In this document: piece by piece, positions 1 to 6,000 of the stretch
How the letters are laid out: the number at the start of each line of letters is the position of its first letter
Position numbering within the stretch: the stretch's first letter is position 1
From: Phallusia mammillata
Lineage: Eukaryota
Assembly: GCA_965637545.1 (NCBI GenBank)
Contig: OZ281498.1
Location: 27,838,001 to 27,902,000 of the forward strand
Direction: 5' to 3'
Length of the DNA: 64,000 nucleotides
Program-made: the position numbers

Positions 1-3000
1 TTGTCAAAAAATCAATTTCTGAACTATAGCTTATTGTTAAATTTTGGATTAACACAAGAAGAAGTTTAGTGTTGCTATTGACCAGAATTTTCTGTGTTTA
101 TTTTCCACAATCTTGCCTTTGGAAGAATCCATGCTTTCTAGCAATCCAACAACACTGCAATAATCAGTTTGGCAGTCTGTTTGTTTCAATGCAGTTAAAA
201 GTTTTTTGTGCCATTCGCTGTCACATGCAAATATCTTAAACAACAGGTCTACCCTCTCCTCTCTGCTTGATAATGCTCTTATTGAATTCCTGTAAAACAA
301 ATTCCATTTTTGTGTTATACTGCACAAGACTTTTGCAACAAATAAAACTTTACTTTTTTTCATCGTCAATTTCCAAAAAATCCACCACATCGTTTGGTTC
401 CAGACTTTCAACAATTTTCAGAAGGTTGTACGAATTTTTATTACACAAAATAGTTTCATCCTCCATAATTACTTTTTTTAATAGTTCTAAACAATAATTA
501 TGTCTTGGTACACAATTCACAGTTCTAAATATTCTCAGCAAAAAGACACAAGCCAGTATTTAAGTGTAAAAAATCACAACTTTTTGACAGTTTTTATCGG
601 ATTTTATCTGACGATGACAAATGAAACTGTTAACACATTGTGATGGTTTACTAGGCTTGTATTGTTTGCTAACAATGATATATATATAATTGATATTTAT
701 TCTTGTTTGTTTAGTTTACCAGAAGTCACCAATCCTACCATTTCCCTCCAGAAACTGCATAATTTGTTCAGGTTCATCTTTTAGTGCTTCTATGAAAAGT
801 GGGATGGATTTTTCCCGTTTAACAACCAATTGCAACAAGCGGGATGCCTGTCCGATATCCGTCTTTCTGGACAGAACTTCTTGTCTACAAAAAACAAACT
901 TACAGTAAAATTGCCAGCAAAAAATATAAGAAAACATGGAAGTATTTTCTACCTGGAAATATCATCCAAAATATCAGGAAAGTGCAACAAAATATCTTTA
1001 GCTTTGATTTTTCTAACAATTACACAACAGTAGACCTCTATTATGTATTTTAATTCAGCAATATGTTGATTTGTTGAAATGTTTGATCCTTCCACATAAG
1101 CCTTTACTTCTGACAAACCTAAATGGTGAAATGTTGGTAAATTGAAAACAGAAAATAATTTATGCAGCAGATAAGTTTTCATTACCCTCAGGAATTGAAT
1201 TTAAAAATGATCGAAAAAATCCTGTCTTCAAATGCTTCAACAAAGAACAGATGATTAAATCAACTTTATTGTTGTCTTCACATCTTATTATTGTATCATA
1301 ATCACCTAAAATAAAATAGAAAATTATCAAGCATGAAATAATGTTTTTTTAGAATGCTTTAAACTATTTTAAAATTGGTTGTAAATGCAATGAACAATTT
1401 TATACATTATTTTGCAGACAAATAACCAGCAGTTATAATTTCAAAGTGGATTGCTGTTCCTGAGATCAACGTACAAAACAAAAACTTACTTTCTTCAATG
1501 ACTCCATCCTGTTTCAAACTGTGAGCAATTCCTTCACAATAATGAGGCTCAATGCGGGAAATCAAATAAGGTTTGAAATTTAGCAATGTTTGTTTCTCGT
1601 TGTTTCGCCGTTCATCGTCCATGGCACCTGCCTCGTTGTTCTATCCCATCTAAACCGAACCCTAAGCATCTTGTGCTGTTTTTTTCACTTGTTTCCCTTT
1701 TCACAAAAAGCACATGACAATACTTTCTTATTTACCTCATTACGTCATGCCAAAACTTCAGTTGTCTGCCCGGGGAATACCCTGATGGTACATTTGTTTT
1801 GGTTTCGCTCAAAGAGATATATTTATTTTAAGTGCCTGTTATTTGTGATTTTCTTTCAATCCTTTTAAAAAGTCACCTTGACTTTGTTATTTAAGTTTAA
1901 TTAGGCCTAAAAATCAGCTAAAAAATACTCTGCTTATTTTTATTTCCCCAAAACGGATTAACCTGGTAATTCCCCTTGCAGCGGACCTTAGTTTCGCCAG
2001 TGGTAAAAAAATTTCAAAGTGGTCATTGCTGGCTTATTACTGTTGCGACCGTACAGGTGGCTTAAAGTGTGAATTTAAAGTGATTTGATATAGGTCGACA
2101 TGTTTACACTTTACTAGTGTAATTTTAGAACGTGATCTAAGTGGAAAAATACTGTTGCAATTTTGCAGAAGGAGAGTGTGAATTTAAAGTGCTTTGATGT
2201 AGATTAATATGTTTACAGATGTAAGTTGGAATCTGATCCAAGTAGCGAAATACTGTTGTGTAGATTGTAAACATTTAAAGAAGGGAAATGTCTTCTCCAG
2301 AAGAGCAAGTTGCACTGATTAATGTAATAAAGAATGAACTGTGCAACAAAATTGCACCCCATCATTGTTTGACAATTGCTCAGTCACTAAAAAATAATGG
2401 AAAAATTTCAGAGGGTTTGTGTTTTTGTTTTGAGATTTTTTAACTTCTTTTTATGTTGTATTTTGGTTCGATTATGGCTATTATTAGGATTTGTTGCTTT
2501 GTTTGTTACATTGAAGTTTATGTGAACAATACATCATACAATTTGTTCTTCATCTTAAACACATATAGAATATAACTACAATATTAGGGTAAAGCATGAA
2601 AACCTTGACATTTCAATCAAATGCAAATTAGATCTGGTGAAAATGTAAAATGATAATTTAGTTGAAAACAAGTACTGGCCACAGATTTTAACAACTTTGT
2701 AAATTTGTTGCATAAGCTTTCTTTATTAACTTTTACTTTTAGAGGAGTGCAATAAAGTCATCCAGCTACCAAGAACAGATAAAACGAAAAGTATGATTGA
2801 ATTCATGTTGAAAAGAAAGGCACCTGGGTTCTTTTTAACATTTTTAACTTCTCTTCAAGAAGGTAGGTTAACTTTTTGTAAATGTTTCAGAAATTCTACA
2901 CTTTATTAGATTTTCATTGATACACGTTTTTAGTTTTTCAACTTTTGTGAGACCAAGAATTTATGTTTATTTAGAGCTGAAGGTTACAAATTCCCTGCTA

Positions 3001-6000
3001 TGCACTTGGGGCATAGTTATTTTTTTAAGAAACTAGAAACTGCTTGGTATTGTAAATAATACATGCTTTTTGTTCAACAAAGATTTTTTCAAAACAGATC
3101 TCTTAATTTTGGTTGTTTCCTGTTTCATCTTTTTGTCTTTGTAGCTGGGCTCTCACATGTTCGGGATGAAATAGAAGGTAAATTAAAACCTCCTACTGAA
3201 CTTCAGGAAACACACAAACATATGATGGAAATATATTTCCCAAAAGTCATCACCAAACTTAAAGCTCGTGATGTTTTAGATAATTTTCCAGACATATTAG
3301 ATGAACACACAAAGTAAGTGTTGATAGCTCTGGATGTGAATATTTTGTATTTTGTTGCAAATGTGTTATTTTAGACAGATGGTTTGTAATGTAGTTGAGG
3401 GAATAAGCCAAAATGCCATGTTTCTGCATTATGTGCTGAAAAATCCAAACTCAATTGAAGTATTGCTGCAAGCTTTAAGAAGTGGCCAATGTGGTTCATT
3501 TACTTTCCTCGTTGATTTGCTCGAAGGAAAAGGTGTTTATTTTTCAAAACAGATTTACTTTTTGTAAGAACCATTAAAATGGGAAAATTTGTATTTGCAG
3601 AAAAGTTTAGTGAATCTGACAGTGAAGTAAACATGAAAGTTTTGGAAAAAATCTGCACACATTCAAATAGGATTTTGGTGAAATTGGACCCGTTGCATTT
3701 ACGCAACCACTTTACATTGGAGAAATCTCACTGGTAGTTTTATTTGTTAATTGTAGGTAGGAGAATATTAATGATGTAATTGCAAATTATTTTTTTGGCA
3801 GGGATGCAATTAAGCGGGAAGAAAATCGATGTAAAAGAGCAATTATGTTTCTCAACATTCTTGCCAACAGCGAGACACCTTGGTTTAAACGACTGTTACT
3901 TGCTTTAACTGCTTGTAAAGAACGTGATTATAGTGAATTGTGTTCAAAGTTGGAAGAAGAATCAGGTAAAAATGAATTAACAGGATAAAATTGATACCAT
4001 TGAAAAGCAACTTTTTAATGAATTTGTAATTTTTTTGCTAGAAGATGTTGGAAGTGAAGCAACACACAGTGGTGACGTAAGTTTTGTAAAGTGTCAAAAT
4101 TTCTTTTATAATTGAAAGTTTTGTAGCATAATTATGTTGACCACTAAACTTTTGTTGTGGTTTTGATATTCCTTGTTTAAATCAGCAATTTTGATTTAGG
4201 TTGCTATGGAAACAGACGTGTGGGAGGTAAAACGTTTTTTTTTTGTGTTTTGATATGCTTGAAGCTAATTGGTTGAGTTTAGGTTGGTATGGAAACGGAC
4301 GAAACAGTTGTGAGAGGAGACGGGATTAATGATGTCAATGAAATCCCGTTTGTTAATGTTGCGGACAGAGGTAGGTTATTTATGTGGCTGTATATAATGT
4401 TTTGCACAGCTCAATTCACACTTACTTGTAAGTATGAAGTTTCTTTGATACATATGTTTGATCAAAAGTTGCACAAATTCTTCTGGGAAATAACTTCCAT
4501 CTGTTTCACAAGCCTTTTCTTCTAAAGAGTTTTCTTTTTAAAGTTTAAACTTTGCAGCAAAAAGATAAATCGAAGCAAAAAATAGTAGTTTGCGGCTTTA
4601 AATTAAATTTATTTGGTACACACAAGCTTGAATTAAAGTTTGAGCAATTTCATGCACATCCACATTTTGTCACCAAGCTACCGTATGGGGCAGTAACTGC
4701 GCTTTATACAAAACAAATATTGACATACTATCGTAATACTCAATCTAGCAAAATATATTTATTTGAACTTTAAAGTAAAGGGATAGACATTACTTGGTAA
4801 CAAACAAGATTAAATTCAAGTTCTAATGTTGCTATGCACACCCATATTTCCGTCAGGCTAATATTTTATGTACACATGGATGTGCTTTCACTATTGTAAT
4901 GGCTAACGTTCACATCATTGTTTTGTGTTTGGTTTGCACCAACGCAGTAATGCACTCAAACATAATTTTTGAGTTTTTTTCTTTCAGTGGATCATGTTGG
5001 TGAAGAGAACCCCCAGTTTGAAGGAAGTTTTCTGAATAACTTTGAAAATCCACCAAATCCACCAGTGGCCCCGACACAGCAGAATCAAAGAGGTCGTTAT
5101 GTTATGTAAAAACAAAAAGCCAATAAATGATAACTATGTTGCAGACAGTGCACTCTGTTTCAACCTATAAGGTCTTATTAGTGCAGCTGGTGATGAGACA
5201 TTGTGACATCAAACAGAATCGGTGAGAAATGGCTTTTTACCCTGTTACTCCCAACAAACTGGAGTGCTGTTATATGGCTGCACCAGCCAATACAGCTTAT
5301 GTCTTGTCACCAGCTGCACTGATGAGACCTTATAGGTTGAAACAGAGTGCACTGTCTGCAGCTCAGTTATGTTATGGTTGAAAACACAGAGCAACTAAAA
5401 CCTTTCAATAAGATCGTAACAATTAGCATATCAAATATAAAACATAGAAATGTTGAAATAATATTTAAATGACATAACATGACATTATGAATGTTTTGTT
5501 CAAGTGGGATTGATGCTTTAGTTTTGTTTGTTTTGTTTATGTGGGATTGCAATGCTCTACATGTTTTTATAATCACAGCTCAATTTTTACATGAAGCGAC
5601 GGTTTTATTTATTAAATTGCAGAAAACGTACTTTAACCCTGTCAGTAACACTTTTGTTTTGTACGAAGCTGAAGTAAAAAATATTATTTATATAACATAA
5701 CATTACAACTATTTTGTTTATGTAAGATTGACAGATCAGCCTAACGCTTACATGTAATTTGCCTAATATGTAGTTTAACCCTGTCAGTACCACTTTTGTT
5801 TTTTGCGAAGCTGATCCTGGGAACAACGTAAGAGATAATGTGGAGAAGTTGGAGCTTCGAGATTATCAACTTGAACTTGCAGCTCCTGCTCTTGCTGGAG
5901 AAAACAGTATGATCGTCGCGCCAACAGGTTTTCCATTGTTTCAGTGATAAAAACCTCCCAATGTCAAGTTTATAGAGCTCTTCTGGCAAATGTAATTTTA

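What the first reader, a model, noticed from the sequence alone, without database searches (positions are those of the whole stretch)
1..4230. Two divergence strata: the CARD+promoter cassette looks recently homogenised
Seen: 1-~4230 versus 21880-~26110 is nearly identical even in introns. Right after the VAMETDVWE microexon, substitutions and indels rise, and TE differences appear (hAT MITE only in D at 28941; hammerhead-element piece only in B at ~5963). Inference: an older duplication to 7243 was followed by gene conversion or unequal exchange limited to the CARD exons and promoter, keeping signalling modules alike while sensing domains diverge.
Basis: partly seen in the sequence, partly recalled or inferred. 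Interest (0 to 1): 0.65.

Follow-up and report, generated by a model that had tools for sequence, protein, structure and literature searches.

The report
Shared signalling module of sea-squirt virus sensors
Two neighbouring pairs of RIG-I-like virus-sensor genes in the sea squirt Phallusia mammillata carry an almost identical front end (signalling exons plus shared promoter) joined to much older, very different sensing parts, which shows a signalling module being copied between immune genes.

Summary
Window 1-4232 and 21880-26113 differ by 45 substitutions and one 2-bp indel (K2P 0.011). From 4233 on, divergence jumps to about 0.17 with 29 indel events (max-chi2 524; 0 of 2000 permutations reach it). 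The break lies at the donor site of the VAMETDVWE microexon.

The genes are four RIG-I-like receptors in two head-to-head pairs: A(-)/B(+) and C(-)/D(+). The organism is the ascidian Phallusia mammillata.

The tract holds the CARD-region exons of both genes of a pair and the 665-bp region between them. Its left end is the window edge, so its true extent is unknown.

There are at least three strata, not two:
- **Stratum 1:** the near-identical tract, 1-4232.
- **Stratum 2:** 4233-7243, with exon dS 0.20 and dN/dS 0.19.
- **Stratum 3:** from the DECH exon onward, where B and D share only 43% of residues.

Stratum 2 ends inside a dead half-copy of D's DECH exon, lying in a B intron. Gene B is therefore a derived chimera.

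Neutral divergence inside the tract is uneven: 2.1% on the A side and 0.33% on the B side. The B/D CARD differences are 10 non-synonymous to 2 synonymous.

Best reading: recurrent non-allelic gene conversion on top of an older partial duplication. It is a new member of a known kind.

The parts
1..4232 (.). Copy 1 of the near-identical tract (stratum 1). The left end is the window edge.
   Evidence: 45 substitutions and one 2-bp indel against copy 2; K2P 0.0107
21880..26113 (.). Copy 2 of the near-identical tract
   Evidence: carries a 2-bp insertion at 24360-24361
118..1622 (-). Gene A: six 5' exons encoding the CARD region (1622-1490, 1305-1186, 1118-953, 884-739, 486-354, 289-~118). The gene runs off the left edge.
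   Evidence: Hand model. All junctions are AG/GT. Weak Pfam CARD hit. 33-46% identical to P0001. No database protein found.
1623..2287 (.). 665-bp region between the start codons of A and B; presumed bidirectional promoter
   Evidence: GC skew changes sign here and at the copy-2 equivalent. No promoter was demonstrated.
2288..13652 (+). Gene B, a RIG-I-like receptor. E1-E8 (2288-4226) lie in the tract and E9-E13 (4283-6734) in stratum 2. The DECH exon at 7560-7706 and all later exons belong to the old stratum.
   Evidence: Exact match to residues 1-535 of P0001 (UniRef100_A0A6F9DBL7, Phallusia mammillata). Pfam domains. Best PDB match is RIG-I at 1e-97.
4200..4226 (+). Microexon E8 encoding VAMETDVWE. 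The divergence break falls at its donor site.
   Evidence: ML break 4239, support 4225-4266
4233..7243 (+). Stratum 2 in B (matches 26114-29637 in D): linker exons and the first half of helicase domain 1, including GSGKT
   Evidence: exon dS 0.197, dN 0.038
7184..7243 (+). Relic in a B intron: the acceptor and 5' half of a D-type DECH exon, cut off in GAT GAA TG and followed at once by a stop
   Evidence: 55 of 60 bases identical to D 29578-29637, score 50 against a shuffle maximum of 15
14747..23501 (-). Gene C, a RIG-I-like receptor. CARD-region exons at 23501-21997 lie in tract copy 2; helicase and CTD exons at 21105-14747.
24167..35700 (+). Gene D, a RIG-I-like receptor. CARD-region exons at 24167-26107 lie in tract copy 2. 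An intact DECH exon starts about 29586.
   Evidence: The 3' part matches P0002 (UniRef100_A0A6F9DAU6), with 579 of 591 residues in exact matches.
28941..29337 (.). hAT-type MITE present only in D, with 8-bp target duplications at 28933-28940 and 29338-29345
   Evidence: empty site in B at 7030-7037
5952..6028 (.). Piece of a dispersed repeat present only in B
   Evidence: copies at 49459-49527, 59077-59153, 48636-48703, 39460-39518 and 39599-39650. No Rfam hammerhead match.

Best explanation
The window holds four RIG-I-like receptor genes of Phallusia mammillata in two head-to-head pairs, A(-)/B(+) and C(-)/D(+). Their sensing bodies (second half of helicase domain 1, Hel2i, Hel2, C-terminal RNA-binding domain) are ancient paralogs.

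**Step 1 (shown).** A block of at least 7.2 kb exists in two copies that diverged to dS of about 0.2. It holds the 5' exons of the minus-strand gene, the shared intergenic region, and the 5' exons of the plus-strand gene up to the middle of the DECH exon. In the B copy the block ends at a non-homologous junction inside the exon (7243|7244). B therefore reads the grafted 5' module and then skips a dead half-exon to reach its own DECH exon at 7560. B is the derived chimera, and D keeps the undisturbed arrangement.

**Step 2 (the exchange is shown; the mechanism is inferred).** Much later, the first 4.2 kb or more of the block was made alike again between the two loci. I take this to be non-allelic gene conversion, and more than one event, because neutral divergence is about 2% on the A/C side and about 0.3% on the B/D side. 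Later tracts would stop at the same right-hand border because homology beyond it has fallen to about 85%.

**Step 3 (suggestive).** Since the last event, the B and D CARD exons have gained mostly amino-acid-changing differences.

**Inferred effect.** Different sensor bodies share one promoter and one CARD signalling module, so they would feed the same downstream adaptor.
For: **The break**
- Max-chi2 is 524, reached by 0 of 2000 permutations.
- Identity is equally high in introns and the intergenic region. Introns of stratum 2 are 83-93% identical, so constraint is excluded.
- One 2-bp indel and no transposon difference lie in 4232 bp. In the next 2.8 kb there are 29 indel events, a D-only MITE and a B-only repeat piece.

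**Stratum 2**
- Exons have dS 0.197 and dN/dS 0.19. Both copies have been kept functional since the older event.

**Stratum 3**
- B against D is 43% identical (208 of 481 residues). B against C is 44% (235 of 531).

**The chimera**
- The relic half-exon is in B.
- P0001 joins E13 directly to the exon at 7560.
- P0002 joins D's E13 to D's intact DECH exon.

**Uneven tract**
- Neutral sites differ at 19 of 924 on the A side and 4 of 1200 on the B side (Fisher p = 1.7e-4).
- The longest identical run is 853 bp, reached by 13 of 5000 permutations.

**CARD differences**
- B/D non-synonymous differences are 10 of 745 sites, against 4 of 1200 neutral sites (odds ratio 4.1, p = 0.013).

**Independent support**
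- P0001 matches B exactly at all 312 residues encoded in the tract, including the 10 sites where D differs.
Against: - The left end of the tract is not seen, so flanking divergence on both sides, the hallmark of a conversion tract, is shown on one side only.
- At least 4.2 kb is long for a single conversion event.
- The unevenness within the tract is weaker when the breakpoint is left free. On all sites, 178 of 2000 permutations reach the observed value. On non-coding sites only, 243 of 5000 do.
- The A-side/B-side partition was chosen after seeing the data.
- The gene A/C model is hand-made, and the end of its exon 6 is uncertain.
- Counts for selection are small (10:2 for B/D). A/C shows the opposite pattern: 8:7, pN/pS 0.29.
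- No reads, no second haplotype and no outgroup were available. An assembly error cannot be excluded directly, and no change can be polarised.
- D's version of the CARD exons has no independent transcript support, because P0002 starts only in E13.
Confidence: 0.55

Rival explanations
1. One recent unequal crossover (non-allelic homologous recombination) between B-type and D-type genes produced a tandem duplication of a 21.9-kb unit. The window's B would be the recombinant gene (D-type 5' part, B-type 3' part). Window 1-4232 would be only the tail of the left copy of that unit.
For: - The two tracts are direct repeats 21,879 bp apart.
- The tract runs off the window edge.
- A single sharp junction lies in 85%-identical homology.
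- At least 4.2 kb is easier to get by crossover than by conversion.
- P0001 shows that a further B-like 3' body exists somewhere. It differs at 53 of 544 residues from the window's B, so more copies of the family may lie nearby.
Against: - A single event predicts even neutral divergence along the tract. Observed values are 2.06% against 0.33% (p = 1.7e-4 on a partition chosen after seeing the data; p about 0.05 with a free breakpoint).
- No third gene pair is present in the 28 kb to the right of D.
Confidence: 0.27
2. Assembly or polishing artefact. One copy of the tract would have been built or corrected from reads of the other copy, or from the other haplotype.
For: - Nothing in the window can test read support.
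- 0.3-2% divergence is in the range that recalled figures give for allelic variation in ascidians. This was not verified here: searches found no figure for this species.
- D's CARD exons lack an independent transcript match.
Against: - The copies are not identical. The 45 substitutions and one indel are spread over the tract, all 14 exons stay open, and every splice site is kept.
- Both tracts continue without a seam into different, well-supported flanks.
- The break sits at an exon-intron border that both copies share.
- Cross-mapping could not turn 85% identity into 99%.
- P0001 confirms B's version exactly.
Confidence: 0.08
3. No exchange at all. One old duplication occurred, and the first 4.2 kb stayed alike through strong purifying selection or a locally low mutation rate.
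For: The tract holds coding exons and a presumed promoter.
Against: - Introns and intergenic DNA are as alike as the exons, or more so: 18 differences in 2426 non-coding bases.
- Introns just to the right are 7-17% different.
- The divergence changes about 16-fold within about 40 bp.
- Within the B/D exons the changes are mostly non-synonymous.
Confidence: 0.02

Closest known systems
Domain-differential gene conversion in the zebrafish NLR-B30.2 family (Howe et al. 2016, PMC4852459; abstract and passages read)
   Same: An innate immune receptor family in a gene cluster, in which homogenisation affects only part of each gene. One module stays alike among paralogs while another diverges.
   Different: - There, hundreds of genes were compared, the evidence is family-wide synonymous divergence, and the homogenised part is the NACHT domain within groups.
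- Here, it is a single pair of loci with a base-level breakpoint.
- The alike part is the N-terminal signalling module plus the promoter of two divergently transcribed genes.
- The sensing bodies are 43% identical rather than family-like.
Domain grafting and exon shuffling in RIG-I-like receptors (Yao et al. 2022, PMC8998645, passages read; Mukherjee et al. 2014, PMC3879448, passages read; Sarkar et al. 2008, seen only as an entry in the latter's reference list)
   Same: N-terminal death-fold modules of RLRs are joined to helicase bodies of separate ancestry. Tandem arrays and exon-intron changes are involved.
   Different: - Those studies infer grafting from trees and domain tables across phyla.
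- Here, the junction itself is preserved: a dead half-exon at 7184-7243.
- The grafted piece includes not only the CARDs but the first half of helicase domain 1 (motifs up to GSGKT and beyond).
- The event lies within one ascidian genome.
- Neither paper's searched passages mention gene conversion or tunicate clusters. In PMC8998645 'gene conversion', 'Ciona' and 'tunicat' each occur 0 times.
Partial-gene duplication giving the twin CARDs of RLRs (PMC4565553; only title and start of abstract seen in the listings)
   Same: Partial duplication of the 5' signalling part of an RLR gene as a source of novelty.
   Different: That work concerns the ancient origin of the second CARD within one gene. 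Here, a whole 5' module is shared between separate genes and was renewed recently.
Vertebrate RIG-I (DDX58)
   Same: - P0001 (gene B) matches solved RIG-I structures over residues 387-1048 at E = 1e-97, ahead of LGP2 and MDA5.
- It has the DEAD/ResIII, RIG-I_C (Hel2i), Helicase_C, RIG-I_C-RD and CARD domains.
   Different: - About 95 extra helical residues lie ahead of the two recognisable CARDs, with no Pfam match.
- The linker is made of microexons.
- The genes form a multi-gene head-to-head cluster. Passages of PMC3879448 report two RIG-I homologs in Ciona.

Membership tests
RIG-I-like receptor (RLR) | DExD/H helicase core with motif I (GxGKT) and motif II (DECH) | tested here: met
   GSGKT lies in exon 6259-6390 and DECH in exon 7560-7706 of B. 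DEAD scores 1.4e-24 and ResIII 4.9e-24 on P0001. D and C carry equivalent exons.
RIG-I-like receptor (RLR) | Hel2i insertion domain (Pfam RIG-I_C, PF18119) | tested here: met
   P0001 residues 605-718, 57.6 bits against a cut-off of 23.2. Single exons of B give 20.6 and 22.4 bits, just below the cut-off.
RIG-I-like receptor (RLR) | C-terminal RNA-recognition domain (RIG-I_C-RD, PF11648) | tested here: met
   P0001 residues 943-1051, 68.9 bits. The last exon of B alone gives 33.9 bits against a cut-off of 25.6. The precomputed Pfam list for P0002 (gene D) includes PF11648.
RIG-I-like receptor (RLR) | N-terminal tandem CARDs | tested here: met
   CARD_2 on P0001 residues 208-281 scores 33.1 bits against a cut-off of 28.2. 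CARD on residues 117-184 scores 21.1 bits, below its cut-off of 23.9. One domain therefore passes and one is sub-threshold. The fold model was too poor to add anything (pLDDT 48.7).
RIG-I-like receptor (RLR) | Binds viral RNA and signals through a CARD adaptor | not testable with these tools
   Inferred from established knowledge of vertebrate RIG-I only.
Non-allelic (ectopic) gene conversion tract | Abrupt change in paralog divergence that includes non-coding sites | tested here: met
Non-allelic (ectopic) gene conversion tract | More divergent paralogous sequence on both sides of the tract | tested here: inconclusive
   The right side is shown. The left side is cut off by the window edge.
Non-allelic (ectopic) gene conversion tract | Copy number and gene order unchanged, as opposed to unequal crossover | not testable with these tools
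   This needs sequence to the left of the window. No eukaryotic genome collection was on hand.
Non-allelic (ectopic) gene conversion tract | Shared polymorphism or mosaic haplotypes between paralogs, or tree conflict with an outgroup | not testable with these tools
   No population data and no outgroup locus were available.
Chimeric gene from partial duplication or fusion | Breakpoint with a relic of the interrupted exon, and different ancestry on the two sides | tested here: met
   Relic at 7184-7243. Exons are 87-97.5% identical to D before the junction and 43% after it.
hAT-superfamily MITE | Terminal inverted repeats, 8-bp target-site duplication, and an empty site in the paralog | tested here: met
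   The assignment to hAT rests on the 8-bp duplication and the TAGGG terminus, which are recalled criteria. No transposase comparison was made.
Hammerhead-ribozyme-bearing repeat | Match to an Rfam hammerhead covariance model | tested here: not met
   0 hammerhead matches. Full copies of the repeat do contain a CTGATGA...GAAAC arrangement (read by eye), and the B piece lacks the CTGATGA part.

The most novel reading that the evidence does not exclude
The head-to-head cassette acts as a portable, repeatedly renewed unit. It consists of two CARD modules around one bidirectional promoter. Ascidian RLR clusters would attach it to sensor bodies of different ancestry.

At least three different 3' bodies carry the same 5' module: the window's B, the body of P0001 (about 10% different), and D (43% identical). 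Conversion would keep expression and adaptor coupling common to all of them. Meanwhile, selection would change CARD surface residues between copies.

This would be a living example of the 'domain grafting' long argued over for RIG-I and MDA5.
Probability: 0.2. Interest if true: 0.7.

Novelty: new member of a known kind. Interest (0 to 1): 0.5.

Why it matters
How RIG-I-like receptors came to combine CARD signalling modules with different helicase bodies has been inferred only from deep phylogenies, and the conclusions conflict (domain grafting against early full-length genes).

This locus shows the process at base resolution in a close invertebrate relative of vertebrates. A junction with a dead half-exon shows that a 5' module was joined to a foreign sensor body. 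A later 4.2-kb homogenised tract shows that the module is still being exchanged between loci.

The locus offers a concrete system for three questions:
- Is concerted evolution of signalling modules selected, or merely tolerated?
- Do bidirectional promoters travel with these modules?
- Do CARD surfaces diversify after homogenisation?

It is also a practical warning for annotation and orthology calls in ascidian immune genes. The 5' and 3' halves of these genes have different histories.

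Tried and rejected
- **Constraint as the cause of near-identity.** Rejected, because non-coding sites are as alike as coding ones.
- **Hammerhead ribozyme annotation of the B-only repeat piece.** No Rfam support.
- **A database protein for genes A/C.** None was found among 102 candidates. Their exon model is hand-made.
- **Structure of the 290-residue CARD region of P0001.** Folded without an alignment, the model was poor (mean pLDDT 48.7, pTM 0.32). No fold search was run, and the idea of a third death-fold domain at residues 1-95 stays open.
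- **Promoter motifs in 1623-2287.** ISRE, NF-kB, TATA, STAT and Ets consensus patterns were recalled from memory. There were no full matches, only four IRF-like half-site matches per copy, which is uninformative.
- **A published figure for heterozygosity of Phallusia mammillata.** Not found.
- **A tblastn-based count of P0001/B differences.** It wrongly flags 51 residues in 1-312, because alignments ran through introns. The exact-match analysis shows 0 differences in 1-535.
- **Simple crossover at the conserved DECH motif as the origin of the 7243 junction.** Rejected. B has its own complete DECH exon 316 bp further on, so the junction is non-homologous.
- **Joined spliced models.** None was built or searched. 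Exon translations were searched one by one, codon comparisons were done exon by exon, and the joined step was left out.
- **Not used.** The bacterial and archaeal genome-contig collection and the phage, plasmid and E. coli collections cannot hold this locus and were not used. Supplementary files of the papers were not seen. Supplementary tables of PMC8998645 and PMC3879448 may list tunicate RLR counts that bear on novelty.
- **Not human.** The window is ascidian, shown by exact matches to Phallusia mammillata proteins.

Full report
**What is there**

The window is eukaryotic, has no N, and is 32-46% G+C. Exon-sized open frames searched one by one against Pfam give CARD, CARD_2, ResIII/DEAD, RIG-I_C (Hel2i), Helicase_C and RIG-I_C-RD hits.

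One CARD exon, searched alone, finds a single protein at 100% identity. This is P0001, UniRef100_A0A6F9DBL7 / CAB3237940.1 of Phallusia mammillata, 1079 aa. Its residues 1-535 are encoded letter for letter by 14 exons at 2288-7664. Its helicase-CTD part matches solved RIG-I structures at E = 1e-97.

An exon of the second plus-strand gene finds P0002, UniRef100_A0A6F9DAU6, 591 aa. Of its residues, 579 of 591 lie in exact matches to 29585-35700.

The window is therefore ascidian, not human. It holds four RIG-I-like receptor genes in two head-to-head pairs:
- **A** (minus strand): 5' exons at 1622-118, running off the left edge.
- **B** (plus strand): 2288-13652.
- **C** (minus strand): 23501-14747.
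- **D** (plus strand): 24167-35700.

**The observation**

Self-blastn and a global alignment show a direct repeat of 1-~7243 at 21880-~29637.
- In 1-4232 the copies differ by 45 substitutions (29 transitions, 16 transversions) and one 2-bp indel. The last difference is at 3949.
- From 4233 the differences come about every 7 bp, and indels and transposon differences appear.
- K2P is 0.0107 against 0.1675. Indel events number 1 against 29.
- Max-chi2 is 524 at 4254, and 0 of 2000 permutations reach it (maximum 28.5).
- The likelihood break is after 4239, with support 4225-4266.

The two transposon claims fare differently:
- The D-only hAT-type MITE is real: 28941-29337, 8-bp duplication GAAATAAC, empty site in B at 7030-7037.
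- The B-only repeat piece at 5952-6028 is real, with five other copies in the window. No Rfam hammerhead model matches anywhere.

Position 1 is the window edge, so the tract's left end is unknown.

**What the tract contains**

It is not one gene's CARD-plus-promoter. It holds:
- six 5' exons of the minus-strand gene (A/C);
- 665 bp between the two start codons;
- eight 5' exons of the plus-strand gene (B/D): an unassigned helical N-terminal part, two CARDs and two linker microexons.

All 14 exons stay open and all splice sites are kept in both copies. GC skew changes sign in the middle of both copies, as expected for divergent transcription.

**Three strata, and a chimera**

Past the break, exons E9-E13 of B and D cover the linker and helicase motifs up to beyond GSGKT. 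They have dS 0.197, dN 0.038 and dN/dS 0.19. This is old, but both copies are under purifying selection.

Behind the MITE, homology resumes at B 7027-7157 = D 29335-29458. It ends at B 7184-7243 = D 29578-29637.

That last piece is the acceptor and first 51 coding bases of D's DECH exon. In D it runs on as ...[16 protein letters not shown].... In B it stops in GAT GAA TG and meets a stop codon.

B's working DECH exon is a different, complete one at 7560. P0001 joins E13 to it directly, and P0002 joins D's E13 to D's own DECH exon.

From there on the bodies are distant:
- B against D: 43% identical (208 of 481 aligned residues).
- B against C: 44% identical (235 of 531).
- The three exons just before the junction: 97.5, 93 and 87% identical between B and D.

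B is thus a derived chimera. A D-type 5' module, CARDs plus the first half of helicase domain 1, sits on a sensor body of separate and ancient ancestry, joined at a non-homologous junction. The 7244-7560 gap contains dispersed-repeat sequence. Whether the junction arose by insertion of a partial duplicate or by a deletion fusing two neighbouring genes cannot be told from the window.

**The recent event**

Constraint cannot explain the tract. Its 2426 non-coding bases carry 18 differences, while introns just to the right are 7-17% different. Some exchange between the loci is required.

The tract is not even:
- **By region.** Counting non-coding plus synonymous sites, the A side has 19 differences in 924 sites (2.06%). 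The B side has 4 in 1200 (0.33%), Fisher p = 1.7e-4.
- **Identical run.** There is an 853-bp identical run at 2528-3380, reached by 13 of 5000 permutations.
- **Weaker tests.** With a free breakpoint, 243 of 5000 permutations reach the observed value on non-coding sites, with the best split at 1714. On all sites, 178 of 2000 do.

I read this as more than one exchange event, which favours recurrent non-allelic gene conversion. Once the first event had set a border against 85%-identical sequence, later tracts would tend to stop there. That step is inference.

The rival is a single unequal crossover that duplicated the whole 21.9-kb unit and made the window's B the recombinant gene. It fits the geometry, and only the unevenness argues against it. 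The sequence to the left of the window would decide.

An assembly artefact cannot be tested without reads but is unlikely:
- The copies differ at 45 sites.
- All reading frames and splice sites are kept.
- Both tracts run into distinct flanks.
- B's version is matched exactly by an independent protein record.

**Selection**

- Their tract exons differ at 10 non-synonymous and 2 synonymous sites (pN/pS 1.28).
- B-side introns have 2 substitutions in 1009 bp. Coding against non-coding gives p = 0.0056.
- Non-synonymous against neutral sites gives an odds ratio of 4.1, p = 0.013.

A/C shows ordinary constraint: 8 non-synonymous to 7 synonymous, pN/pS 0.29. The counts are small, so this is a lead for diversifying change after homogenisation, not a demonstration.

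**An unexplained mosaic**

P0001 equals the window's B at 535 of 535 residues up to the middle of the DECH exon. It then differs at up to 53 of 544 residues: 10 of 165, 9 of 200, and 34 of 179 in the C-terminal domain. P0002 is about 98-99% identical to D.

So the same 5' module is attached to a third, B-like but distinct, body. That body could be a very divergent allele, a further paralog or a chimeric transcript model. Its locus is not in the window.

**Comparison with what is known**

Part-of-gene homogenisation in clustered innate receptors is described for zebrafish NLR-B30.2 genes (PMC4852459, abstract and passages).

Tandem expansion and N-terminal 'domain grafting' of RLRs are described for lophotrochozoans (PMC8998645, passages). 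They are debated for vertebrate RLRs (PMC3879448, passages), and that paper reports two RIG-I homologs in Ciona.

My searches found no paper on an ascidian RLR cluster, on CARD-module conversion in RLRs, or on this locus. The library lacks most subscription journals, and supplements were closed.

I file the finding as a new member of a known kind. It has one feature of added value: the physical junction of a grafted signalling module is preserved.

**Verdict**

- Observation: confirmed.
- Interpretation: partly supported.
- Best explanation: recurrent gene conversion on an older partial duplication, confidence 0.55.
- Rivals: unequal-crossover duplication 0.27; artefact 0.08; constraint 0.02.
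- Interest: 0.5.

Noticed in passing
window 7560-13652 (gene B 3' exons) against protein P0001: P0001 is identical to the window's gene B for residues 1-535. It then differs at up to 53 of 544 residues, most densely in the C-terminal RNA-binding domain (34 of 179). P0002 is about 98-99% identical to gene D. This could be a divergent allele, another paralog with the same 5' module, or a chimeric transcript model.
   Followed up: partly
window 4195-4232 and 4277-4312 (26076-26113 and 26156-26191 in D): The VAMETDVWE microexon and the start of the next exon (VGMETDET / VAMETDET) are short tandem duplicates of each other, acceptor included. The divergence break falls between the two units.
   Followed up: partly
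window 2288-2861 (B exons 1-2) and 1622-1186 (A exons 1-2): Both gene types encode about 90 helical residues ahead of the two recognisable CARDs, with no Pfam match. This may be a third death-fold domain. The single-sequence fold was too poor to tell.
   Followed up: partly
window 21606-21743, minus strand, gene C linker: A 27-bp tandem repeat of 5.1 copies, 94% matches, encoding GPAPNMDGK repeats in an open frame between C's CARD and helicase exons.
   Followed up: no
window 5613-5672 and 5755-5814: A local tandem duplication found only in B (85% identical units, 142 bp apart), ending at the acceptor of exon E11. D has a single unit.
   Followed up: no
window 28301-28444: A 144-bp palindromic insertion found only in D, with related copies at 51086-51161, 32930-33000, 50966-51027 and 50401-50455. 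It looks like a second MITE family.
   Followed up: no
window 10385-10539, 11432-11586, 30708-30862, 43452-43611, 49761-49905: A 155-190-bp dispersed repeat family (81-90% identical copies). It includes an inverted pair in introns of gene B and one copy in gene D.
   Followed up: no
window 2070-2287: Two units of about 105 bp, similar by eye, directly upstream of B's start codon (GTGTGAATTTAAAGTG...ATACTGTTG). They are present in both tract copies. They were seen in the printed sequence, and TRF did not report them.
   Followed up: no
window 55847-58567, minus strand: A 906-codon open frame made mostly of acidic PEDEPEDK-type repeats. TRF finds periods of 12 and 24 bp, about 86-177 copies, at 55898-57898. 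It is unrelated to the RLR genes.
   Followed up: no
window 7857-8173: A 159-bp tandem repeat, 2.0 copies, 87% matches, in the B intron after the DECH exon.
   Followed up: no
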